Assembly: GCF_004010195.1 (NCBI RefSeq)
Contig: NC_057718.1
Coordinates: forward strand, 74,992,289-75,044,879
DNA length: 52,591 bases
Direction of reading: 5' to 3'
Source of the DNA: Chiloscyllium plagiosum
Taxonomy: Eukaryota
A program made the translations under genes and the position numbers. Positions 9,375 to 51,600 of the stretch are shown here, piece by piece (within the stretch, counting starts at the first letter, position 1; each line of letters opens with the position of its first letter). A model generated the notes under the pieces. The model did no database searches and was not told the DNA's origin. It saw nothing but the letters and a program-made list of their open reading frames with translations.

Positions 9375-9492
9375 GATATTTCTTAAATCAGTCTGTTCAG
9401 ACATGTTAAGATGCATCTTTGGAGCATGTGGGGCTTGAGCCCAGGTCATCTGACCCAGAGAAAGAAGTACTACTGCAGCATCAAAAGCCCTC
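9375..9492 (-). mobile_element. Short (~110 bp) tRNA-derived SINE, old copy
   Basis: Reverse complement has A-box/B-box-like gctgcagtagta..ctgggctcaagcccc and matches copies at ~16450, 24480, 24708, 26165, 30140 and 30452. Confidence 0.6.
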
Positions 9493-9859
9493 ATAGGTGG
9501 GTAGATAGTTTTGATCAACTTGTTCTGACATGTTGGGAATATATTCATAGATGAGCTGAAAAAGTGTTGCTGGAAAAGCGCAGCAGGTCAGGCAGCATCC
9601 AAGGAGCAGGAGAATCGACGTTTCGGGCATGAGCCCTTTTTCAGGAATGACGAAAGTGTGTCCAGCAGGCTAAGATAAAAGGTAGGGAGGAGGGACTTGG
9701 GGGAGCTCATCTATGAATATATTCCCAACATGTCAGAACAAGTTGATCAAAACTATCTACCCACCTATGAGGGCTTTTGATGCTGCAGTAGTACTTCTTT
9801 CTCTGGGTCAGATGACCTGGGCTCAAGCCCCACATGCTCCAAAGATGCATCTTAACATG
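9402..9859. repeat. Perfect 156-bp inverted repeat (9402-9557 / 9704-9859) with 146-bp spacer
   Basis: Checked base by base in 10-nt blocks with no mismatch. Confidence 0.97.
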
Positions 9860-10012
9860 CAGGTCCTTGGACTCCTCCATCGCTAGACCATAGCACTCCA
9901 CCTTGGTGGAGTGGGAGGGGGAGTTGAAGTGTTGAGCCACGGGGTGGTTGGGTTGGTTGGTCCGGGTGTCCCAGAGGTGTTCCCTGAAATGTTCCGCAAG
10001 TAGGCGGCCTGT
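9558..10012 (-). mobile_element. Rearranged Penelope-like element insertion (pLTR piece and GIY-YIG-region pieces)
   Basis: 9558-9703 is antisense pLTR (gctggaaaagcgcagcaggtcaggcagcatcc..cgacgtttcgggc). 9901-10012 antisense encodes GRLLAEHFREHLWDT..PVAQHFNSPSHSTK. 9856-9895 is a sense-strand piece (MQVLGLLHR). Confidence 0.9.
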
Positions 10013-10592
10013 TTATATAGCAAAGAAAAGGATCATCAACCCATCGAGTCTGCATTGTCAAAACTGCCACTAACAGTGTGCTCATCCCAATTTCCCACAC
10101 TTGTTCCATATCCTTGAATGTTATGATATTTGAAATATGCATCCAACTATTTTTTAAAGGTTGTAAGGTTTCCAACCTCCTCTATCTTCCAAGCAGTGCA
10201 TTCTAGATTCCCACCAACCACTGAGTGAAAAATAGTTTTCTAAAATCCCCTCTGAAACTCTTGCCCTTACCCTATGCCCACTCATAGACCCATCAATCAA
10301 GGGGAACAGTTGCTCTCTATTCATCCTGAACATACCACTCATAATTATAAGCCTTACTAGTCTGTCCATATAGCTCAGTTCTCCATCCCAAGCAACATCC
10401 TGGTGACCTTCCTCTGTATTCCCTCTAGTGCTATCACATTCTTCCTGTAGTGGGTTGACCAGAACTGCGCACAATATTCCGCTGTGACCTGACCAATAAT
10501 CTGTACAACTCCAACATTACCTCCTTGCTCTTATACTCTATACCACATCTGATGAAAGCAAGCATTCCATATGCCTTCTTAATTATCCTATT

Positions 10593-10897
10593 AGATTACT
10601 TACAGTGTGGTACTAGACCCTTCGGCCCAACAAGTCCACACCGACCCTCTGAAGAGCAACCCATTCCCCTACATTTACCCCTTCACCTAACACTATGGGC
10701 AATTTAACATGGCCAATTCACCTAATCTGCACATTTTTTGGACTATGGGAGGAAACCGGAGCACCTGGAGGAAACCCATGCAGACATGGGGAGAATGTGC
10801 AAACTCCAGACAGACAGTTGCCTGAGGTGGGAAGTGAACCTGGGTCTCTGGTGCTGTGAGGCAGCAGTGCTAACCACTGTGCCACCGTGCCGCCCAC
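10593..10897 (-). mobile_element. HE1 SINE (V-SINE)
   Basis: tRNA-like head gggcggcacggtggcacagtggttagcactgctgcctcacag, V-domain ggagtttgcacattctcccc..ggtttcctcc, AATCT tail. Confidence 0.95.
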
Positions 10898-11055: not shown

Positions 11056-12177
11056 CCTGCTATTGACACGCTCTACCAACTTCAGAGATCTGTGAATAAT
11101 TACCCCAAGATCCCTCTATTCCTCTAAGCTAACCAGGGTCATGCAATTCATCAAATACATCTTCATCTTGTTTCATTGTCCAAAGTGCATCACATCTCAC
11201 TTATCAGGGTCAAATACCATCTGCCAATGGTCTGCTCATCTGACCAATCCGTCTATACCTTACTGTAGCCAACAACCATCTTCTTCACTATTAGCCACGC
11301 TATCAATCTTGGTGTCATTTGTTAATTTGCTTAACATTCCCCCCACAGTTTTATCTATACCATTTATGTATATAACAAACAATAAGGGTTGCACTGGTAC
11401 AACACTGGACATTGGTCTCCAGTCATTCAAACAACCTTCTACCACTACCCTTTGTGTCTTTTTCCTAAGCCAGTTTCTGATCCATCTCACCAAGTCTCCA
11501 TCAACTCTATGTGCTTTAACCTTCTCAATCACTCTCTCATCTGGGAGCTTGTCAAGACCTTTGCTAAAATCCATAAAAACTACATTAACTGAACTTCCCT
11601 CATCCACACACACGATCACATTTTCAAAAGATGCGAACAAATTTTGTTGGGCATGACCTCTCTCTGACAAAGCCATGCTGACTATCCCTAATTAAGCCAT
11701 ACCTTTCCAAGTGGATATTAATTCACTCCTTCAGAATTTTCTCCAATTTCTTTTCCTCCCACTGATGTGAGACTCAACAGCCTGTAATTTCCTCATTCAT
11801 CTTTACCACCTTCTTAAAAAGTGGAACCATATTAAGTGTCTTCCAGTCCTCTAGCACTTGCACTCTGGATAAAGAGGAATGAAAAATTAATGTCAGAGCC
11901 CCTGCAATTTCCTGCCTTGCCTTTCTGCTTGCATCTGGAATGCAATTCATGTGGGCCAGGGGTTTTGGCTGTTTTTAAGATGGATGGAACATTTCCTATG
12001 TTAAACTGTGCAAATTCATCACAGCCCCTTTTCCTGAATTCCATACTCATGTTCTCCTTTTCCAGAGTGAAGACTAAAGAGTACTTATTCAATACCTTTC
12101 CAGTATCCTGTGTTTTCACAATGTGCCCCACTCTTTCCCTGGTTAACATTTTCTCTTCAATGTATTTATAAAATAAA

Positions 12178-12470
12178 GGCAGCACGGTGGCTCAGTGGTT
12201 AGCACTGCTGCCTCATAACACCAGGGCCCCAGGTTCAATTCCAGCCTCAGGCAACTGTGTGGAGTTTGCACATTCTCCCCGTGTCTGCATGGGTTTCCTC
12301 TGGGTGCTCTGGTTTCCTCCCGCAGGTCAGGTAAATTGGCCATGTTAAATTGCCCATAGTGTTAGGTGTATTAGTCAGAGGGAAATGGGTCTGGGTGGGT
12401 TACTCTTCGGAGGGTCAATGTGGACTGGTTGAGCCAAAGGGCCTGTTTCCACACTGTAGGGAATCTAATC
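12178..12470 (+). mobile_element. HE1 SINE with 9-bp TSD
   Basis: HE1 head, V-domain and tail; TATAAAATA at 12167-12175 and 12471-12479. Confidence 0.95.
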
Positions 12471-16449: not shown

Positions 16450-16510
16450 CAGTTGAACCCAGAACCTCTGGCCCAGAGACAAGACACTTCCACTACACCA
16501 CAAAAGTCCT
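16450..16510 (-). mobile_element. Head of short tRNA-derived SINE
   Basis: Reverse complement gtggtgtagtggaagtgtc..ctgggttcaac (A-box and B-box). Confidence 0.55.
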
Positions 16511-17160
16511 CACTGCAGATAGAACAAAATAACTAGACATTAATTTTCACCTGCTGAATGGTTTCAAAAGAAAACCAATTTTCAGGACTTTGCCGTTTAC
16601 ACATGTAATGAAATTTGTACTACTGATTCAACTTGTAACGGTCTGACCATTGGGAAGAGTTCATTTAATTATCCTCTGTAAGTGTCCGGTTTGGTATTTG
16701 CTATTGCGAAGCAGAGCTATGATCTCCAGTTTCCGATGTGACATTTTCTAAACTGTATAAAGACATCTTTCATGTGATATCCAACAAAAGATGCAGTGAA
16801 ACAGTATTTGAAATGTATAAATTTGGGCCTTTGTTACGTATTGTATGTTTCAAATATTGCATGATTGCTTTCCTCCTTTCTACTTCTTTGTCATACCTTA
16901 TAATGAATTTGTTAGTTTTATCTTGAACATAATCATGTGACGTAATATTAATTATCATTCTATGCTGACAGAAAAATGTGTTGGTTTTCTTATATGACTT
17001 CTGACACACTGTTTTCAAAGACGATGACTTGAGATGTAGCACGCCACCTCAATCAGATTGCATGGGGCACAGACTTCAGATTCTACTTACAGAATTTGCG
17101 TTTCACTGTGAGGGAATGTGATCATCAGAAAGTAACACGACATTTGAATATTTTGAATAT

Positions 17161-24050: not shown

Positions 24051-24469
24051 ATTGGTAGTTAATTATACTTCCAAATAAATACTTGCAATTATAAATAATA
24101 TCTGCTGAACATAATTTGCAAATATGAAAATACAAATAATTTCATTGACTTATTCCAAAAGTACCTAAAGCCATTACTATCTGCTACATTATCATGTACA
24201 AATATGTGATCAGTGATTGCATCCAGGAAATTGTAGCCACAATAAATAGCTTAACAGGATATGCATTAACTTTGATTTAAATCAATAGGTCCAATTACCA
24301 ACATCTGGCATTTCCATAGGTACAAATTACCTTTATATATTCGCTTTTCTGAGGCTCAATGAGGTAGAATTTAATGTTCAAATTGAATAATCTGGTTGTT
24401 GGATGTTCCTCAAGAGGCCTAAGCCCTTTCTGTTCTTCTGTTGAATATTTTCCTAACCACGCTGTAATG

Positions 24470-24562
24470 CAATGTTATTACACAACTCTGGAGCAAGTGG
24501 CAATTGAACTTGGGTCTCTTGGCTCAGAGGTAGGTATACTACCGCTGCTTCCCAACAGTCCT
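24470..24562 (-). mobile_element. Short tRNA-derived SINE
   Basis: ttgaacttgggtctcttggctcagaggtaggtatactaccgctgc is the reverse complement of the family head. Confidence 0.6.
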
Positions 24563-26255: not shown

Positions 26256-26517
26256 CACCATTCCTCCAACATTTCTGCCACCTACAATCAGATCCCACCA
26301 CCTAAAAGATATTTCCCTCCCCACCTTTGCCTGCGTTCCCCTGGGACCGTTCACTCCGCGACTCTCTCGTCAACTCTACATTCCCCACCTACTTCTCCAC
26401 CAACCAGATCCCTTTACCTGCAACAGCAAGAGTTGCAACAACTGCCCCCACACCTTCCCCCTCACCTCCATCCAAGGCCCTAAATAATCCTTCCCGATCC
26501 AATAGAGATTCACCTGC
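26250..26517 (+). mobile_element. Penelope-like element fragment (linker before GIY-YIG)
   Basis: Similar to 29185-29447; encodes RSLRDSLVNS and CNSKSCNNCPH. Confidence 0.85.
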
Positions 26518-27247
26518 AGTCGAGAGTGTGGTGCTGGAAAAGCACAGCTGGTCAGGCAGCATCTGAGGAGCAGGAGAATTGATGTTTTGGGCTTAAGTCC
26601 TTCATCATGAATGAGGCTTGTGGGCCAAGATGGCAGAGAGATAAATGGGAGGGGGTGGGGCTGGGGGGAAGGTATCTAAGAGTACGATAGGTTGGTGAAG
26701 GTGAAGCCAAAGTTGATAGGTCGGAGAGGAGGGTAGAGCGGATAGGTGGGAAGGAAGATGGACAGGTCAAGAGGGCGATGTCAAGTTGGAAGGTTGGATC
26801 TGGGATAAGATGGCGGGTGGGGAAATGGGGAAACTGGTGAAATCCACATTGATCCCATTTGGTTGCAAAGTCCCAAGGCGGAAGATGAGGCGTGGTAAGG
26901 GCTTGGCGATGGAGGAGGCCCAGGACCTGCATGTCCTTGGTGGAGTTGGGGGAGGAGTTAAAGTGTTTGTGTACATGGTGGTAGGATTTCTTCGTGTGTG
27001 TGTCCCAAAGATGTTCTCTGAAGCTTTCCGCATGTAGGTGTCCTGTCTCCCCAGTGTAGAGAAGACCACATCGGATGCAACTGATACAGTAAATGAGGTG
27101 TGTGTAAGTACAAGTAAATCTTTGATGGAAGTGGAAGGCTCCTTCAGGGCCTTGGACAGAGGTGAGGGTGGAGGTGTGGGCGCAGGTTTTGTAATTCTTG
27201 CGGTGGCAAGGGAAAGTGCCGGAAAGGGAGGGTGGGTTGGTGGGGGC
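26518..27247 (-). mobile_element. Penelope-like element 3' part (GIY-YIG and pLTR)
   Basis: IYCISCIRCGLLYTGETG..FREHL, LIFRLGTLQPNGINVDF, and a pLTR with a decayed hammerhead core. Confidence 0.9.
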
Positions 27248-27249
27248 GC

Positions 27250-30082
27250 CCCTAGAGGTTCATCTGCAGCTCATCTAAACTCTCCCATAATTACCTCTAG
27301 ACACACATTTCTTCAACCATTCATCCCTGACCTCATCTCTGACCTTCTGTGGGATTGCCCCAGGCCATTGACTATATGGGTGGTCCTGCCACCCCCATGG
27401 ATCAAGTGGCTTCTGCTCATGTTGAGGACTATGTGACCGCTGCTGTTGCTTGTGTTAAGGACCATATGACTGCTGACATCATCAATGACCAGGTCACCTC
27501 CACTTCCACCCGGATAACCACTCCAGCGCACACACCCACTCCCAATGAAGTCCCCATCTCCACACTTGACCCCAGGTCTGTACACTCAGCCCCAGCTCTG
27601 CCAGGTATTAATCACCCTCCCTGGACCTCCCCGTTACTGAGGTTGAAGAGCCAATCCCCAGCAAAGAGCTCACCTTCATTGCCGTAAGTCCACACATGAA
27701 CGAATTCTGCACACATCATGATGTTGAGCTCTTTTTCCTTGTCTATGCACCTATTTCTTTGAATGGGAGTCCAACCCACCCTTTAACGATCCTTCCTCCT
27801 CCCTCTGGCAAACCCCATCCTCATGGACACCCCCTCCCAGCGTCCTACTCACCCTCAATTCCTTCATGTCAGCAGCCGTTGCAACATCAATGGATCTCTC
27901 CACCCTCACCTACTCTAACCTCTCTTTATCAGAGTATGCAACCCCCCACTCCCTTCTCTTCAATCCTAACCTCGCTATTAAACCCACCAATAAGGGGGGG
28001 TGATGATAAGGGAAGTGATCTCTACATCGCTGCGTTCAGACGCCAACTCTCTGATACCACCTTGTACCGTCTCTTGATTATGACCCCATCTCTGATCAAC
28101 AAGCCAACATTTCCCAGACCATCAACAACTTCATCACTTCAAGAGATTTCCAGTCTACAGCCCCCCAACCTGATAGTTTCCCAACCCCACACTGCTCATT
28201 TTTGTCTCCTACCCAACGTCCATAAACCTAACTGCCCTGGTCAACAAATTGTCTCTGCCTGCTCCTGCCCAACTGAGCTCATCTCCTCTTACCTTGACTC
28301 CATTCTTTCCCCTTTCATTCAGGAACTCCCAACCTACATTTGAGACACAACCCATGCCCTCCATCTCTTCCAAAACGTTCAATTCCCCAGCCCCCGACAT
28401 CTCATCTTCACTATGGATGTACAGGCCCTTTAAGCCTGCATCCCCCACACAGAGGGCCTAAAAACTCTCTGCTTCTTTCTCTCCTGTAGGCCCAACCACG
28501 TCTCTTCCACTGACACACTCATTCGCGTGGCAGAACTGGTCTTCACCTTCAACAATTTATCATTTGATTCGTCCTACTTCCTACAAACCAAAGAGGTAGC
28601 CATTGGCACCCACGTGGGCCCAAGCTATGCCTGCCTCTTTGTAGGATTCATGGGACAGTCCTTTTTCCACAACTACACCGGCAATATTCCCACCTCTTCC
28701 TCTGCTGTATCGATGACTGCATCAGTGCTGTCTTATGCTCCACGAGGAGCTTGAGCAGTTCATCAGCTTTGTCAACTCCTCCCACCCCATCCTCAAATTC
28801 CCAGGACCATTTTTGACACTTCCCTCTCCTTCCTGGACCTCTCTGTCCCCGGAAACTGGCTCACCAGTGATATCCATTTCAAACCCACTGACTCCCACAA
28901 TTATCTTGAGTACACTTCCTCTTACTCACCTTTCTGCAAAAAGTACTATCCAATACTCCCAATTCCTCTGCCTCTGCCGTATCTGCTCCTAGGATTAGGC
29001 GTTTCACTTCAGGACATCCTCAGTAATCTCCTACTGTAGGGATCATAATTTCTCCTCCACAGTAATTAAGGATGCCCTCAAATGCATCTGCCACACATCT
29101 GCCCTCAAACCTCCCTCTCCCCAGCAACAATAGGGATAGTGTCCCCTGAGTCCACACATACCACTACACCAATCGCCGAATCCAACACATCATCCTCTGA
29201 CATTTCTGCCACCTACAATCAGACTCTACCACCAAAAAGATATTTCCTTCCGCATCTCTGTCTGGTTTCTGCAGGGACCATTCACTCCAAGACTCCCTTG
29301 TCAACTCTACACTCCCCACCAACTTCTCCACCAACCCGATATCTTTCCATGCAACCACAAGAGGTGCAACAACTTTCCACACATCACGCCCTCACTTTTG
29401 TTCTCAGTCCCAAACAATCCTTCCAGATTTGAAAGAGATTCACCTGAACTTCATTCAACCTCCTCTATTACATCCATTGCTCCTGATGTGGTCAACTCGC
29501 TACCGGGGAGACCAAACACAGACACTGGGATCAGTTCACGGAACATCTGCACACATCAACCAACCCAACCTTCTAATTACCATCCATTTTAATGACCACT
29601 CCCAGTTTCCTGGCGATTTATCCATCCTTGACCTCCTTTACTGTCAGAATGAGATCAAACACAAACTGGAGGAACAACACCTTATATTTAGTCTGGGAAG
29701 CTTACAGCCCCATGGCCTCAATATCAACTCTACCAGCTTCAAAGTCTTTCTTCCCCCAGACTTATTCTATGTCTAGCAGTAACTCTTCTCCTCGCCTCCC
29801 TGACCTGAGCTGTCCATCAGTCTACTCACCTATCTGCTCCACCCTTCCCACTGGCCAATCACAATAATACCCTACCTGCATCCACCTATCATCATCTCTC
29901 CTACTTTTTCTCCAACCCCACCCCCTCTCTCCAAATATATCTGGGCTCCCCAGCTCTAACGAAGGGTTTCAACTTGAAATGTTAACTCTCCTGCTCCTCA
30001 GATGCTGTCTGACTTGCTTTACTTTTCCAGCTCCACATCTGCTCAGTCTGGCTTCCAACATCGGCAGTCCTTACTGTCTCCA
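27250..30082 (+). mobile_element. Long degraded Penelope-like element (RT, GIY-YIG, pLTR)
   Basis: LLPNVHKPNCPG..IVSACSCPTE, IFTMDVQAL, AIGTHVGPSYACLFVG, IDDC, KLEEQHLIFSLGSLQPHGLNI; pLTR at ~29950-30082. Confidence 0.93.
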
Positions 30083-30202: not shown

Positions 30203-30406
30203 GAGAAAGTGAGGAATGCAGATGCTGGAGACCAGAGTTGAGAGGTGTGGTGCTAGAAAAACACAGCAGGCCAGGCAGCATCTGAGGAGCAGGAGAATCA
30301 ACGTTTCGGGCATAAGCCTGAAGAAGGGCTTATGCCCGAAACGTCGATTCTCCTGCTCCTCGGATGCAGCCTGGCCTGCTGTGTTTTTCCAGCACCACAC
30401 TTCTCA
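30203..30406. mobile_element. Hairpin PLE-pLTR mini-element with ~15-bp TSD, inserted in a short tRNA-derived SINE
   Basis: ~82-bp inverted arms at 30237-30318 / 30327-30408. Flanks ACATTATCATTGTAG (30188-30202) and ACATTATTATTGTAG (30407-30421). Confidence 0.9.
30318..30345 (+). ncRNA. Minimal type I hammerhead ribozyme core motif (PLE-type)
   Basis: CTGAAGA-A-GGGC-TTAT-GCCC-GAAA-CGTC: conserved core, 4-bp stem II, palindromic ACGT in place of stem III. Confidence 0.65.
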
Positions 30407-30451
30407 ACATTATTATTGTAGCAAAAGTGCAATTAGTATTCATCCTGAATA

Positions 30452-39942: not shown

Positions 39943-40136
39943 AGGCAAAAATGAGGACTGCAGATGCTGGAAACCAGAGTTTAGACGAGTGGTGCTGGAA
40001 AAGCATAGAAGGTCAGGCAGCATCCGAGGTGAAGGCACCATTCCTGATGAAAGGCGTTTGCCTGAAACGTCGATTTTCCTGCTCCTCGGATGCTGCCTGA
40101 CCTCCTGTGCTTTTCCAGCACCACTCTGATCTAAAC
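39943..40136. mobile_element. Hairpin PLE-pLTR mini-element with perfect 14-bp TSD
   Basis: ATTTAGCCACATTT at 39929-39942 and 40137-40150; inverted arms at ~39979-40029 / 40084-40136. Confidence 0.92.
40040..40075 (+). ncRNA. Minimal type I hammerhead ribozyme motif (PLE-type)
   Basis: ATTC-CTGATGA-A-AGGC-GTTT-GCCT-GAAA-CGTC-GATT. Confidence 0.65.
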
Positions 40137-42504: not shown

Positions 42505-42829
42505 TGTTATGAAGTTGAAAGTGTGTACTGTACCTTTAAGAGAGAGTGAGTGCTATTTTGCACTGAGAGCTTATAAGCACCTGTCATATAACTAGCTACC
42601 AGTCTCAGGGTGAACTGGAAAATTGAAAATATGTAACATTTGGCTATGAAACTGATGCCTTGAGTTTTGGGTCCTACTTTGACAACACTTCAAATTTAAC
42701 CAGTTTAAATTATGCCCCAGGATACTAAAACTACATCAAGTTTGAATTTATTGTTTTTGCCAACCTTGAACCAATGACATGATCCAATGTTAGGGGTATA
42801 AAGAAGCAGGCATTTTGAAAGTTAGACAG
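42505..42829 (+). mobile_element. Truncated LTR (5' part), same family as 43858-44615
   Basis: Begins TGTTATGAAGTTGAA, contains CCAAT and GGGGTATAAAG, and is an inverted match to 44290-44615. Confidence 0.8.
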
Positions 42830-42849: not shown

Positions 42850-45110
42850 CAGGAGCTAGAGAAGAAGTCAAAATGTAGGCTCTGAAGGTACTGTTGTAAT
42901 GCTTCAAATATTCCTATTGCCACATTCTAACAAGAATAGAAAGAGGAAAATATTGAGGATCATTGTGCGGCTTGAGATATGATGTAGGAGATGGCATCAG
43001 ATTTCGGGAAATTGGGGCTTATTCTAATGGGACTGGTTTCACCTCAAAAAGGCTGGGACAATGTCTTCCAAGGGAGGTTCATGAGTGTGACTGGGGAGAG
43101 TTTCAATTAAATAGGCAGGAGGAACTGGCACCAGCAGAGAGGTAGCAAATAGGAATATAGGGATGCAAGTTGTTGTTTGTCAGTACAAAACTTAGATATT
43201 GCTGAAAAATAGACACATTTTATTGAAGCTTTTCACCACTCACATTTGCAAGAAATACCAATGCAAAGGGATAACAATCGTTGTATTGTATGATAACAGT
43301 AAAGCTTTGGGTGGTGCAAGAGAAGGAAGTAGTACCACATTACCTATCAGCAAACTAAGAATAAATAACTAAGTGAAATACCAGGACAGGTCAGGGTAAA
43401 TGCTCAAACAATGATGAATAAGGTTGTTGAGCTACAAGCACAAAGTTCTACATGAGAATATGAAGCAGTAACAGCACAGAAACGCGTTTTAAAAATGGTA
43501 AATGCTGGGTGATTGTGATTCAAGGATACAAAATGTTCACAAAATATAGGAAAGGAAAACAATGTAAATGGGATGGCAGTATTCATGAGAGAAGACTGTT
43601 GCCTTGAAAAAGGAGCGTATCAATTGGGGAGCAAGAATCTCTTTTGTTACATTTACAAAGCAAATTGGTATGATCATGATGTTAGGGGCATTCTGTAGGC
43701 CTCCAACTGATGAGAGAGATACAGAATCATACCTACAGGAAAATTGTAGAAATGCATAAGAACTATAGATTGGTGAACTTCAGCAACTATCATTGGAATG
43801 AACCTCCTGATGGAATGTCATGGCTCAATGAAGAAAAAGGTGTTGTTGGTTCTATTTTATGACATGAACCCTTCTGTTAATTAAACCAAACACCAAGAAA
43901 AGCTCACCTCGCCTCATAATCTGTTAAAGTATGAGTGACAGAGAACTCCTCAAATTCCATTGTTTACACAAAATGTATCAATTTATTACTTAACTCTAAA
44001 AGTGAACATTAAACAACAACTGCTTACAACTCTAAGGCTCCTTTCTCTTAAAGGTTTGTTATCTTCCTCCAACTCGATAACAATATACTGTTCCAATAAA
44101 AGCCCATCTTAAAATTGCATTAATTTAATTACAAAACCACTCAGTAGCTATCGTTGTCAGTGTCTGTTTTCTTTGAGCTACAGATCTCCGTGGGTCATCT
44201 TCAGTCTTTTACTGCAAAGATGTTTCATATGAAAAATGCACCTTTGATAGAGAGTATTTTGAATGGCAGTCTCTCAATGGCTGTTACTGTCTGGCTAACT
44301 CTCAAAATGCCTGCTTCTTTATACCCCTAACAATAATTATCTCACTGGTTCAATGTTGGCAAAACTGTAAATTCAAAGTCTATTGTGCTTTAGTATACTG
44401 GGGCATACTTTAGACTGATTGTTAAATTCGAATGGTTGTCAACATAGCAACCAAATCTCAGGTATTTGTTTCACAGCCAAATGTTACAAATTTTCAAATT
44501 TCCAGTACGCTCTGAGACTGCTCATCAATCACATAACAGATGTCTACAAGCTCTCAGTGCAAAACAGCTTTCGCACTCTCATTGAGGTACAGTACATGCC
44601 TTCAACTTCATAACATCAGGTGCTGGGGAATGAGGTGACGTGTGTGCCTGCATGCTGAACACTTGGGTAAGAGTGATCTGCGCAGTATAAGTTTTAGATT
44701 AATAATAGAGAGAGGCAAGGGAAAATCTAAAATGATACAACTAAATTGGGAGTGGAGTGATTTCAATGAGATGAGGTGGAATGTAACCAGCGCGAAATGG
44801 AAATCAAAGACTGACAGGAAAAATATAATGGAAAAATGACTGATCGATAAGGACATGTTGCAGGTTTACAATAGAGGCATTACAAAAAAAAGTGAAGGGA
44901 ACTGAAGGCCTGCTTCAGGGAAGTATATAGAAATGTGAGGGAGATAGAAAATTTGATGAAACATAAATACGTGTGCTATACACATCTTAGATGAAGTCTT
45001 CAAACAACAATCAGGCAAATACAATGAGTCAAGAGGGTAAATGAGGGAAATATACAATTAGCAAAGAATGAGTATCACAGCAGAATAACAAGGAACATTT
45101 GAAATGGAGA
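42850..45110 (+). mobile_element. Very old CR1 (ORF1 end, endonuclease, tether) interrupted by a solo LTR
   Basis: NAQTMMNKVVELQAQ, LGAFCRPP, EHLGKSDLRSISFRLIIER. Confidence 0.65.
43858..44615 (-). mobile_element. Solo LTR (~760 bp)
   Basis: Minus strand starts TGTTATGAAG, has GGGGTATAAAG and AATAAA, and ends ..GTCATA (decayed CA). Confidence 0.8.
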
Positions 45111-48119: not shown

Positions 48120-48572
48120 TGATGATGGTGAAAGGTCAGAGTGGAGGGTGGAGCAGATAAGTGGGAAGGAAGATGGACAGGTAAGACAGTTCAAGAGGGC
48201 AGTGCCGAGTTGGAGGGTTGGATCTGGGATAAGGTAGAGGGAGGAGACAAAGAATCAATGTTGATTTCACCAGTTTCCTCATCTCCTCTCCCCCCACCTT
48301 ATCCCAATTCAACCCTCCAACTCAGCACCACCCTCTTCAACTGTCCCACCTGTTTATCTTCCTTCCCACCTATCTGCTCCACCCTCCATTCCGACCTATT
48401 ACCATGACCCGCCACCTTTTCCGCCTATCACATTCCTAGCTACCTTCACCCCTGCCCCACACCTTTAAGAAGAGCTCCTGCCCCTCAGATGCTGCCTGAC
48501 TGGCTGTGCTTTTCTAGCACCACACTTTTTGACACTGATCTCCAGCATCAGCAGTCCTTTCTTTCTCCTACT
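48120..48572. mobile_element. Penelope-like fragment with internal inversion
   Basis: Imperfect ~115-bp inverted arms (~48134-48247 / 48283-48396) followed by a sense pLTR (cagatgctgcctgactggctgtgcttttctagcacc). Confidence 0.85.
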
Positions 48573-48640: not shown

Positions 48641-51600
48641 GATTTGATTTGGTTTGATTTGATTTATTTACTGTCACATGCACCTAAGTACAGTGAAAAG
48701 ATTTGTTTACGAGCAGTGCAGGCAGATCATAGAAAGCAAAGACATACAGATCATAGGGTGAAGAAAACCTTAGATGGAGGCATACACATTACATCATACT
48801 GGGAGAGTACTGGAGATCAACATAAGCAAGATCAGCATTATTTGGAGTTAGAGAGTACATTCATCAGTCAAATAATGGTAGGGAAGAAGCTGTTCTTGAA
48901 CTTTCTGGTGCGTGTGTTCATGCCTCTGTATCTCCTGCCCGATGGAAGAGGCTGTAGGAGAGCATTACTGAGGTAAGATGGGTCTTTGATGATGTTGGCA
49001 GCCTTTCTGCGGCAATTAACAGTGTAAATGGAGTCCATTGATGGAAGGTTGGCTTCCATGATGGGCTGGGCTGTGCACATATCTTCTGTAGTTGCTTATG
49101 GTCCGAGGTAGGGCACTTGCCATGAGACCATTTTGTACCCTGACAGTATGCTTTCAATGCTGCATGTGTAAAAGCTGGTGAGGGTCCTTATGGAGACGTC
49201 AAATATCCTGAGCTGCCTGAGGAAGAAGAGGTATTGCTGTGCCTTCTTGAACATCGCACCTATGTGAGAAGTCCAGGGCAGGTTGTCAGTTATTGTCTCT
49301 CTGAGGAACTTGATGCTCTCCATCCTCTCAATCTCAGCTCTGTTGATATAGATGGGGGCATGTTCTCCTCCTTTCTTTCTGAAGTCAATGATCAGTTTTT
49401 TAGTTTTGCCGACATTGAGAAAGAGGTTGTTATCATTGCATGACATCACCAAGCTCTCTTTGCCCTTTCTGTACTCTGACTCATTGTTATTAGATATCCA
49501 TTCTACCACAGTGCTGTTGTCAGCAAATTTGTAGATAGCGTTCATTCAGAATTTGGCAACAGAGTCTTGGGTGTACAGGGAGTACATAGGGGGTTGAGAA
49601 CACATCCTTGGAGGGCTCCAGTGTTGCGTGTTATTGTGGAGGAGGTGCAGTTATCTAACTTCACTGATTGTGGTCTGTGGGTCAGGAAGCTGAGGATCCA
49701 GTGCCAGAGGGCAGAGCCAAGCATAAGATCTCAAAGTTTTGAGATCAGTCTGGAGGGCTAATGGCGTTAAAGAGTGGAGCTGTAGTCAATGAGCAGGAAT
49801 CTGATATAGGTGTTCTTGTTCTCCTGATGTTTCAGAGCTGAGTGCAGGGCAAGGGATATGGCATCCACAGTGGAGCTGTCATGTCGGTAGGCAAATTGCA
49901 AGGGATTGAGGCATGCTGGGAAACTGGAGTTGATGTGGTCCATGACCAGCCTCTTGAAGCACTTCATGATTATGGAGGTCAGAGCCACTGGGCAGTAGTC
50001 CTTTGGTACATTCTTTGGTATGGGGATGATGGTGATCTTCTAAAAGCAGGTGAGGAGTTCAGATTGTAGGAGAGAAAGGTTAAAGATGTCGGTGAGTACC
50101 ACCTGTTGGTGCACGCAGGATCTAAATGCTCACTTGGGACTCCATTTGGGCCTGTTATAGAACATAGAACATAGAACATAGAACATAGAAGAATACAGCG
50201 CAGTACAGCCCCTTTGGCCCTCGATGTTTGTCCTATACCTACCTCCCCTTAATTTAAAGCTATGCCCCCTTGTAATAGCTGACTCCATACGTGGAAGAAG
50301 ATTCTCACTGTCGACCCTATCTAAACCCCTAATCATTTTGTACACCTCTATCAAGTCACCCCCAAACCTTGTTTTCTCCAATGAAAACAGCCCCAATTGC
50401 CTCAGCCTTTCCTCATACGATCTTCCTACCATACCAGGCAACATCCTGGTAAACCTCCTCTGCACCCGTTCCAGTGCCTCCACATCCTTCCTATAGTATG
50501 GGGACCAAAACTGCACACAATACTCCAGAGTCTTATATAAGTGCAACATTACCTCAGTACTCCGGAACTCAATTCCTCTACCAATAAAAGCCAGTACGCC
50601 ATATGCCTTCTTCACCGCACTATTTACCTGGGTGGAAACGTTCAAAGATTTGTGTACATGGACACCAAGATCTTTCTGCTCATCCACACTACCAAGTATC
50701 TGACCGTTAGCCCAGTACCTCATCTTATTATTACTCTGACCAAAATGAATCACCTCACACTTAGCTACATTGAACTCCATTTGCCACCTTTCTGCCCAGT
50801 TCTGCAGCTTATCAATATCCTGCTGTAACCTGCCACATCCTTCCTCACTGTCTACCACTCCTCCGACTTTCGTATCATCCGCAAACTTACTCACCCAACC
50901 TTCTAACCCCTCCTCCAGGTCATTTATAAAAATGACAAACAACAATGGTCCCAAAACAGATCCTTGCGGAACACCGCTAGTGACGGCACTCCAAGATGAA
51001 CCTTTGCCATCAACTACTACCCTCTGTCTTCTTCCAGCTAGCCAACTCCTAATCCAAACCTGTTGCGTTCTTTGAGTTGATTCTCAGGAAGACTGATCTA
51101 ACATTTGCAGTGTGACCGAGGGAACAAGTATGCCAGGGGCTGTTGGAGCAGGTGGCACCATGCTGTTGGCATTCTGCTTAAATCGAGCATTGAGCACATC
51201 AGGCAGGGATGTGTTTTTGTCTGCTATTTATGTTCTGCTTCATTTTGTATCCTGTAAAGTTGTTTAGGCTTTGCCACAGGTGGCAGGAGCATGTTTGTTA
51301 GGTATGAGCCTCTAGGTATGGTCCGGTACTGTCACTAGGCATCCCTGATAGCTTTGCAGAGGTCATAACTGGATTTCCTGTTTTGGTTTGAGTTGTGCAA
51401 CTTGAATGCTGCATGCCTGGTGTTCAGTATGGAGTTCCTGATTCATCCAAGGTTTCCATTTCGGGAACACTCAGATTTTTCTTCTTTGGTACGTGGTCCT
51501 CTACACACTTGCTAATGAAGTCCATGACAGTGGTGGCCTATTTGTCCAGGTTTTCCGATGAGTACTTGAACATGGTCCAGTCCACTGATTCCAAGCAGTC

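What the first reader, a model, noticed from the sequence alone, without database searches (positions are those of the whole stretch)
9402..10012. Penelope insertion containing a perfect 156-bp inverted copy of its own flanking DNA
Seen: 9402-9557 (an old SINE plus unique DNA) is repeated with no mismatch in reverse orientation at 9704-9859, between two PLE pieces. The copy rejoins PLE sequence through a shared ACATG. The two outer flanks (..attcatag / ttatatagcaaag..) join into a plausible CR1 tail, which suggests one insertion site. Inference: during integration the PLE reverse transcriptase, or a repair polymerase, switched template from the element onto target DNA and back. PLE self-inversions are established, but inverted copying of the host flank is much less familiar to me. 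The result is a cruciform- or dsRNA-capable structure, and the identity of the arms implies it is recent or homogenised.
Basis: partly seen in the sequence, partly recalled or inferred. Interest (0 to 1): 0.72.

Follow-up and report, generated by a model that had tools for sequence, protein, structure and literature searches.

The report
Backwards flank copy inside old retroelement
A 156-base stretch of shark DNA was copied backwards into the middle of a neighbouring dead jumping gene, most likely by a later DNA-copying or repair slip rather than when the element landed, which makes it a clear example of a known kind of scar.

Summary
The inverted repeat is real in the window: 9402-9557 and 9704-9859 match at 156 of 156 bases. 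The arm is not part of the Penelope-like (PLE) family. It holds a 41-nt piece turned to sense and a 9-bp snap-back hairpin, so there are four internal switches with 2, 5, 2 and 2 nt of microhomology.

Timing argues against copying during integration. A related species about 5% diverged has a contig that fits the same left PLE junction, so the insertion is old. Arms that old should differ at about 3-7 sites; they differ at none. Both carry one base that looks derived in this lineage.

Best reading (0.6): a recent, probably polymorphic, complex microhomology-mediated templated insertion (MMBIR/FoSTeS or polymerase-theta type) replaced the middle of an old 5'-truncated PLE copy. Rivals: snap-back at integration with later homogenisation (0.2), assembly artefact (0.12), re-cutting by a PLE enzyme (0.08). 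No read evidence confirms arm 2, and no empty site was seen. Inverted flank copying is already described for L1 and R2. Unchecked scan notes list similar local captures elsewhere in this genome.

The parts
9386..9493 (.). Old SINE-like fragment in the left flank, largely inside arm 1
   Evidence: 64% to 24455-24562 and 77% to 16453-16512; SINE label recalled
9402..9557 (+). Arm 1: 151 nt of original left flank plus the first 5 PLE-derived bases; template of the copy
   Evidence: Joined to further sequence in single contigs of 4 of 4 runs (records 1, 10, 17, 25)
9553..9705 (-). Piece A: 3' end of a Penelope-like element; its left border is the likely priming site of the original insertion
   Evidence: Family loose ends at 9553 and 9705 in 4 of 4 runs; 77-90% to window paralogs
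9620..9645 (-). Degenerate minimal-hammerhead-like motif inside piece A
   Evidence: Seen in the sequence; the label is recalled; no Rfam match at gathering score in the window
9704..9859 (-). Arm 2: exact inverted copy of arm 1; enters through 2 nt (AG) and leaves through 5 nt (ACATG) of microhomology
   Evidence: family borders
9855..9895 (+). Piece C: 41 nt of the PLE endonuclease region in sense orientation, inverted relative to A and B, with an in-frame stop
   Evidence: Matches paralog 26934-26906 in the opposite direction to B; translation; opposite-strand joint 9855/9901 in 12, 10, 6 and 27 family contigs
9894..9913 (.). Snap-back mini-hairpin: 9894-9902 is the exact reverse complement of 9905-9913 (9-bp stem, 2-nt loop); 2-nt microhomology at each side
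9901..10012 (-). Piece B: 112 nt of the PLE GIY-YIG endonuclease region; 10012 is the 5' truncation point
   Evidence: Translation; search hits, of which 5 of 10 scanned have a Pfam GIY-YIG match, 3 at or above the cut-off; alignment; family loose ends
10013..10580 (-). Right flank: old LINE 3' end (the name CR1 is recalled)
   Evidence: 59-64% to window LINE ends; RVT_1 hit below cut-off further along at 11260-11691 (E 2.8e-4); junction spanned by X15 record 14 with 29 letters on the PLE side

Best explanation
Two events. First, an ordinary 5'-truncated Penelope-like copy inserted between an old SINE and an old LINE tail before the lineage split from a species now about 5% diverged. It probably ran A, middle, C, B without a break (inferred). 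Second, much later and perhaps in one haplotype only, a stalled fork or broken end inside this dead copy went through four microhomology switches. Read on the + strand, synthesis left A at 9705 and folded back on its own strand 146 nt behind (AG). It copied the junction and 151 nt of flank, jumped through ACATG to the opposite strand of piece C, and copied 41 nt. It then jumped through CA to the end of B, copied 9 nt, and returned through CC to the normal template. The middle of the element (at least about 224 nt by a paralog) was lost. Shown: the pieces, borders, microhomologies and arm identity. Inferred: sharing of the left junction (from contig end points), the order of events, the ancestral allele and the polymerase. 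The product is a probably neutral hairpin-capable scar.
For: (1) Four internal junctions with 2, 5, 2 and 2 nt of microhomology; every template lies within the old insertion or its flank. (2) Old insertion: the organism C contig (X6 record 25) matches through the 5 PLE-derived bases and ends 25 letters later, which is where the last 31-mer holding a flank base would end. Organism A contigs behave alike (X1 record 1, 23 letters left; X15 record 10, 52 letters left, fitting 9528-9579). (3) Organism C differs from the window at 7 of 156 sites in the arm and 21 of 433 in the right flank. Expected differences between arms of that age are 7.2, 4.3 or 3.4 under three rate choices, so P(0) is 0.0008, 0.014 or 0.034. 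(4) At 9799/9462 organisms B and C and one of two window SINE paralogs share one base, while both window arms carry another. (5) The 3 of 3 other PLE fold-backs with short spacers in the window have decayed to 94%, 90% and 85%, so homogenisation is not the rule here. (6) Piece C has a stop-making base absent from the family loose-end consensus of 4 of 4 runs and from the window paralog, which fits copying from an aged local copy. (7) Contigs run unbroken from flank into arm in 4 of 4 runs and past the arm end in 3 of 3 that reach it, where a second arm would fork the graph (weak, see against).
Against: Arm 2 begins within 5 nt of the flank-PLE junction. A later random event explains this only as coincidence. 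The ancestral allele was never seen whole. The letters left over in the contigs were not printed, so junction sharing is inferred from end points. Only one site is polarised, and the second SINE paralog has a third base there. Organism B contigs cover neither junction. Logan contigs are simplified graphs (PMC12424806, passages), so forks can be pruned, and only 84% and 87% of X1 and X6 were read. The lay tables hid 75 joints and 1304 loose ends. Piece C and the mini-hairpin could be older than arm 2, which would make it three events. Decay in the other fold-backs may partly reflect arms that differed from the start. Unchecked scan notes report several other PLE copies in this genome with local captures, which could point to a PLE-linked cause.
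Confidence: 0.6

Rival explanations
1. During integration the cDNA end snapped back onto its own junction and copied the flank. Recurrent intra-strand template switching between the arms then kept them identical within each lineage.
For: The copy starts almost exactly at the insertion junction. Snap-back onto cDNA or nearby target DNA is described for R2 (PMC11371274, passages), and inverted duplications with 2-bp microhomology for L1 (bioRxiv 10.1101/2024.12.14.628481, section 9). Conversion of near-perfect to perfect inverted repeats is known (PMC7954356, passages). The X6 arm contig is deeper (40.4) than its right-flank contig (23.7), though contig depth is a poor measure.
Against: It needs complete conversion of 151 nt, including a lineage-derived base. 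Three other fold-backs in the window with shorter spacers are not homogenised. It needs templates of both polarities from beyond piece A at the moment of insertion. Contigs pass the would-be forks unbroken.
Confidence: 0.2
2. Arm 2 and the inner scramble are an artefact of the assembly or of a chimeric library molecule. The real allele is a plain truncated PLE.
For: Perfect identity. No independent read evidence for either arm-2 junction was obtained. PLE inverted structures are said to trouble assemblies (PMC8557442, passages).
Against: A fold-back read artefact mirrors the whole read and does not return to the forward path (own knowledge). Here four switches each carry microhomology and the sequence resumes in register in piece B. 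The window has no N. Outer parts match X1 without a difference in 4 of 4 listed contigs of unique sequence (records 1, 6, 7, 8).
Confidence: 0.12
3. A later PLE enzyme re-cut the old copy near its terminal repeat. The PLE reverse transcriptase or host repair then produced the fold-back, so old PLE copies would be hot spots for copying neighbouring host DNA.
For: All breakpoints of the second event lie in or at the PLE. A purified PLE protein cuts both strands of DNA at its own ORF-pLTR junction (PMC11167929, parts 1-2 of 4). Unchecked scan notes describe other local captures inside PLE copies.
Against: No fresh PLE sequence was added: piece C carries a private stop, and no new tail or target duplication is seen. 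PLE is so abundant (summed contig depth above 1e7 over piece A) that random scars will often fall in it. Similar scars outside PLE are noted in the same genome (unchecked notes).
Confidence: 0.08

Closest known systems
Complex germline MMB-TI events (microhomology-mediated templated insertions; Osia et al. 2021, PMC8421209; passages and part 1 of 2 of section 10 read)
   Same: Insertion copied in inverted orientation from a nearby template, flanked by microhomology; several templates in one event; in-place inversions; seen as germline variants (33 of 103 and 26 of 99 events were complex).
   Different: The 156-nt arm and the jumps of several hundred bases exceed the 100-bp search range used there. 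Here the event sits in a retroelement of a shark-like genome, and the pre-event allele is inferred, not observed.
L1 insertions with inverted duplication of target DNA (bioRxiv 10.1101/2024.12.14.628481; passages and section 9 read)
   Same: Self-annealing of a 3' end through 2-bp microhomology primes an inverted copy of flanking genomic DNA beside a retrotransposon insertion.
   Different: Those arise at integration, on the reciprocal end, with small hairpins. Here the copy is of the priming-side flank, the loop is 146 nt, it lies inside the element, and it appears younger than the insertion.
Snap-back 5' junctions of R2-mediated insertions (PRINT; PMC11371274; passages read)
   Same: The cDNA 3' end primes synthesis on cDNA or, less often, on nearby target DNA.
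   Different: Occurs at the 5' junction during insertion. Here more element sequence follows the flank copy.
EN+ Penelope-like insertions with inverted 5'-truncated copies and captured host DNA (PMC3846280, PMC8557442; passages read)
   Same: 5'-truncated copy with a C-terminal GIY-YIG region and inner inversion; host DNA between PLE parts and microhomology deletions are described in Adineta vaga.
   Different: The usual inverted part is a copy of the element's own end. An exact inverted copy of the adjacent flank inside the element did not appear in the passages read.
Short-range template switches of the four-point model (PMC7954356; passages read)
   Same: [quoted passage not shown]
   Different: That model has one out-and-back switch. 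This locus needs four switches and a deletion.

Membership tests
EN+ Penelope-like element | GIY-YIG endonuclease region near the 3' end | tested here: met
   Piece B aligns to proteins of which 5 of 10 scanned have a Pfam GIY-YIG match, 3 at or above cut-off. The Atlas gave GIY-YIG clusters at 0.95 for the window paralog (11-33% of members). Direct Pfam scans of B and the paralog gave nothing.
EN+ Penelope-like element | Telomerase-like reverse transcriptase in the same ORF | not testable with these tools
   The copy is truncated inside the endonuclease region. Homolog searches with the paralog found nothing.
EN+ Penelope-like element | Pseudo-LTR with hammerhead motif; head-to-head inverted copies in the family | tested here: inconclusive
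   Three fold-back copies of related sequence in the window. No Rfam hit at gathering score. The motif label is recalled.
Complex MMB-TI / FoSTeS-type templated insertion | Insert matches a nearby template in inverted orientation | tested here: met
   156 of 156 at 146 nt distance; 9 of 9 for the mini-hairpin
Complex MMB-TI / FoSTeS-type templated insertion | Microhomology at the switch junctions | tested here: met
   2, 5, 2 and 2 nt at 4 of 4 internal junctions; a single 2-nt match is weak alone
Complex MMB-TI / FoSTeS-type templated insertion | A pre-event allele that holds all templates and lacks the insert | tested here: inconclusive
   X15 shows both outer junctions on a haplotype that differs from the window at 10014 and 10023; its interior is not resolved
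Integration-time snap-back (L1/R2 type) | Flank copy is as old as the insertion | tested here: not met
   Left junction inferred shared with a species 4.75% diverged (28 of 589) while arms differ at 0 of 156; P 0.0008-0.034 without homogenisation
Integration-time snap-back (L1/R2 type) | Empty target site with a duplication or small deletion | tested here: inconclusive
   No empty allele in the tables shown for 4 runs
PLE family transduction (arm is part of the mobilised unit) | The 156-nt segment accompanies family copies at other loci | tested here: not met
   Family contigs diverge at 9705 and 9855; depth over 9780-9851 is 10-40 against 1e6-1e7 over PLE parts

The most novel reading that the evidence does not exclude
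Penelope-like copies in this shark drive inverted duplication of their own flanks. Either the element's enzyme re-cuts old copies and repair folds back across the junction, or the fold-back forms at integration and the arms are then kept identical by concerted evolution over about 5% sequence divergence. Either would be a recurrent, PLE-linked source of perfect hairpins in host DNA.
Probability: 0.25. Interest if true: 0.58.

Novelty: new member of a known kind. Interest (0 to 1): 0.3.

Why it matters
Under the best reading it is a well-resolved germline record of serial template switching in a slowly evolving vertebrate, with no sign of function. Its main lesson is about method: a perfect flank copy inside a retroelement need not date from integration, and related species can separate the two events. 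If the novel reading held, PLE copies would be a recurrent source of local inverted duplications. That bears on how PLE integration is completed and on how short inverted repeats persist. One long-read comparison across three species would test it.

Tried and rejected
No whole genome is held for this window, so no genome-wide screen and no family reference were possible.

Exact-pattern scans for family copies found 0 matches in metagenome contigs and 0 in viral contigs.

Missing cover, not counted as evidence: no contig with an arm-2 junction shows in the tables. Depth at 9841 equals the arm contig alone in 4 of 4 runs. Bin 9708-9743 is fully explained without a junction contig in X1, X15 and X5, with 264 letter-depth units left over in X6. 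Contigs show presence, not absence, and single-copy junction pieces beside the PLE are also missing at 10013-10032 in X1 and X5 and at 10023 in X6. The lay covered 9528-10580 only (arm 2 whole, 30 nt of arm 1) and 4 of the 24 runs listed; no raw-read run was laid.

No empty site was found. The X6 contig is not an empty allele, since it matches the 5 PLE bases and does not continue into the right flank.

Host gene search: 148 of 166 non-repeat frames of at least 55 aa were scanned against Pfam. 4 had a hit at E up to 0.01, and 1 passed its cut-off (ALKBH8_N, probably a LINE piece; recalled). The Dynactin_p62 hit was rejected on reading the translation. Rfam gave 0 hits. A host transcript is not excluded, since short exons and long introns would be missed.

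Homolog searches with the paralog frame and against solved structures gave nothing significant. Of the 39 hits, most are short matches in long repetitive proteins; I scanned 10 that cover most of the query.

A decayed target-site duplication (6 bases alike on both sides in the X15 haplotype) was considered and left open; it could be the LINE's repetitive tail.

Folding (-234.9 kcal/mol, z -27) only restates the repeat.

Literature searches for PLE-specific flank copying listed 6, 5 and 4 papers. None showed such a case by title or abstract start; three PLE papers were read in part, no supplements.

Full report
Observation. The repeat is exactly as stated: 9402-9557 and 9704-9859 are reverse complements at 156 of 156 positions with a 146-nt spacer. 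The next-longest exact inverted match in the window is 46 nt. The window has no N and is 43% GC. It looks like a shark genome from its repeats (recalled; an unchecked scan note on this genome says bamboo shark). No whole genome was available.

Anatomy. Laying public contigs of four runs on 9528-10580 fixed the borders of the repeat family through its loose ends: 9553, 9705, 9855, 9895, 9901 and 10012. On the + strand the order is as follows. Left flank; piece A (9553-9705, element 3' end, antisense); arm 2; piece C (9855-9895, sense); a 9-nt snippet (9894-9902) that mirrors 9905-9913; piece B (9901-10012, antisense); then an old LINE end. In the family, B and C are contiguous. The paralog at 26934/26935 shows this, and so does an opposite-strand joint 9855/9901 in 12, 10, 6 and 27 contigs of the four runs. 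The four inner junctions share 2 (AG), 5 (ACATG), 2 (CA) and 2 (CC) letters. By the paralog, at least about 224 nt between C and A are missing. The last five bases of arm 1 are element-derived, so the copy spans the flank-element junction.

Identity of the element. B translates to an open 37-residue piece. A search of 1.84 billion representatives gave 39 hits. Of 10 that I scanned, 5 have a Pfam GIY-YIG match and 3 reach the cut-off; they align with B and the paralog. The Atlas placed the paralog near GIY-YIG clusters at 0.95. Direct Pfam scans and two homolog searches were blank. With the fold-back copies elsewhere in the window, this fits an endonuclease-bearing Penelope-like element; its reverse transcriptase could not be tested. 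The arm is not part of the family: family contigs leave at 9705 and join at 9855, and depth over 9780-9851 is 10-40 against millions over the element.

Timing. The run search listed 24 runs, 18 holding some of the stretch, from three organisms. I laid four: two samples of organism A from two studies, one of B and one of C. The organism C contig (record 25) matches the arm with 7 substitutions and 1 gap, includes the five element-derived bases, and stops 25 letters later. That is the point at which the last 31-mer holding a flank base would end. The organism A contigs leave 23 and 52 letters that fit the same junction. Those letters were not printed, so this is an inference from end points. One organism A contig also spans the right junction, with 29 letters on the element side and two differences from the window (record 14). 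Organism C differs from the window at 28 of 589 sites, B at 13 of 457. If both arms dated from the insertion they should differ at 7.2, 4.3 or at least 3.4 sites; the chance of none is 0.0008, 0.014 or 0.034. At 9799 (mirror 9462) B, C and one of two SINE paralogs agree on one base while both window arms carry another. Piece C has a stop-making base that the family consensus of all four runs and the paralog lack. The three other short-spacer fold-backs in the window match at 77 of 82, 53 of 59 and 106 of 125 columns. Together these say that arm 2 was made or overwritten well after the insertion.

Limits. No independent evidence for arm 2 was obtained. Contigs pass unbroken where a second arm would fork the graph (4 of 4 at the outer end, 3 of 3 at the inner end). 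But Logan contigs are simplified with SPAdes-like heuristics (PMC12424806, passages), and the tables were cut. I treat this as a weak hint that the other samples lack arm 2. The X6 arm contig is deeper than its right flank (40.4 against 23.7), which leans the other way. Arm 2 starting within 5 nt of the junction is the best argument for an integration-linked origin.

Mechanism. The best-supported model (0.6) is two events: an old 5'-truncated insertion, then a complex microhomology-mediated templated insertion inside the dead copy. With both parental strands present, every template is local. The polymerase (replicative, or polymerase theta) cannot be named from sequence. The rivals are snap-back at integration with later homogenisation (0.2), assembly artefact (0.12) and re-cutting by an element enzyme (0.08). 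The strand folds into one long hairpin. No host exon was found in 148 of 166 frames scanned, so a double-stranded RNA role has no support here.

Comparison with what is known. Complex multi-template insertions with microhomology are common germline variants in humans: 33 of 103 and 26 of 99 events (PMC8421209, passages and part 1 of 2 of section 10). Short-range switches that create perfect inverted repeats are described in great apes (PMC7954356, passages). Inverted duplication of target DNA at L1 insertions through 2-bp microhomology is described (bioRxiv 10.1101/2024.12.14.628481, passages and section 9). So is snap-back onto nearby target DNA for R2 (PMC11371274, passages). Penelope-like insertions are known for inverted truncated copies, captured host DNA and microhomology deletions (PMC3846280 and PMC8557442, passages). 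A purified PLE protein cuts and extends both strands (PMC11167929, parts 1-2 of 4). Three searches listed no paper on an exact inverted flank copy inside a PLE, judged by title and abstract start; the library is partial and no supplements were read. Unchecked scan notes from this genome describe other local captures inside PLE copies and backwards copies outside them. One of them gave me the term MMB-TI; none was tested here.

Verdict. A real feature of the assembly and a new member of a known kind, interest 0.3. The most novel reading not excluded is that PLE copies drive or preserve such flank duplications (probability 0.25, interest 0.58 if true). Long reads from this animal and from organisms B and C would decide it.

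Noticed in passing
window 30237-30408, 39979-40136, 48125-48405: Three head-to-head fold-back copies of PLE-related sequence, arms 94%, 90% and 85% alike; used as controls for homogenisation.
   Followed up: partly
window 26412-27259: Older PLE copy with the endonuclease region in an open frame and an inverted partial copy of its own 5' part at 26412-26516 (76%).
   Followed up: partly
window 10014, 10023, 10480-10482: The X15 haplotype differs from the window at two sites within 11 nt of the right junction. All four runs have a contig with one extra base at 10480-10482, which may be a window-specific deletion or an assembly error.
   Followed up: no
window 9727-9759 (mirror 9502-9534): A 33-nt stretch matched by extra contigs in 4 of 4 runs, some with another base at 9741; probably a low-copy repeat, so this part of the arm is not strictly unique.
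   Followed up: partly
window 42505-42660 and 44460-44615: Inverted pair, 156 nt, 79% alike, 1.8 kb apart.
   Followed up: no
window 49099-49545 (-): Open frame with a Pfam ALKBH8_N match above cut-off (E 6.5e-11); probably the end of a LINE ORF2 (recalled), not a host exon.
   Followed up: no
window 10590-10894 and 12178-12469: Two copies of a short interspersed repeat in inverted orientation 1.3-1.7 kb apart, 76-94% alike.
   Followed up: no
window 9564-9635: The PLE 3' end is extremely abundant in all three organisms (summed contig depth above 1e7).
   Followed up: no
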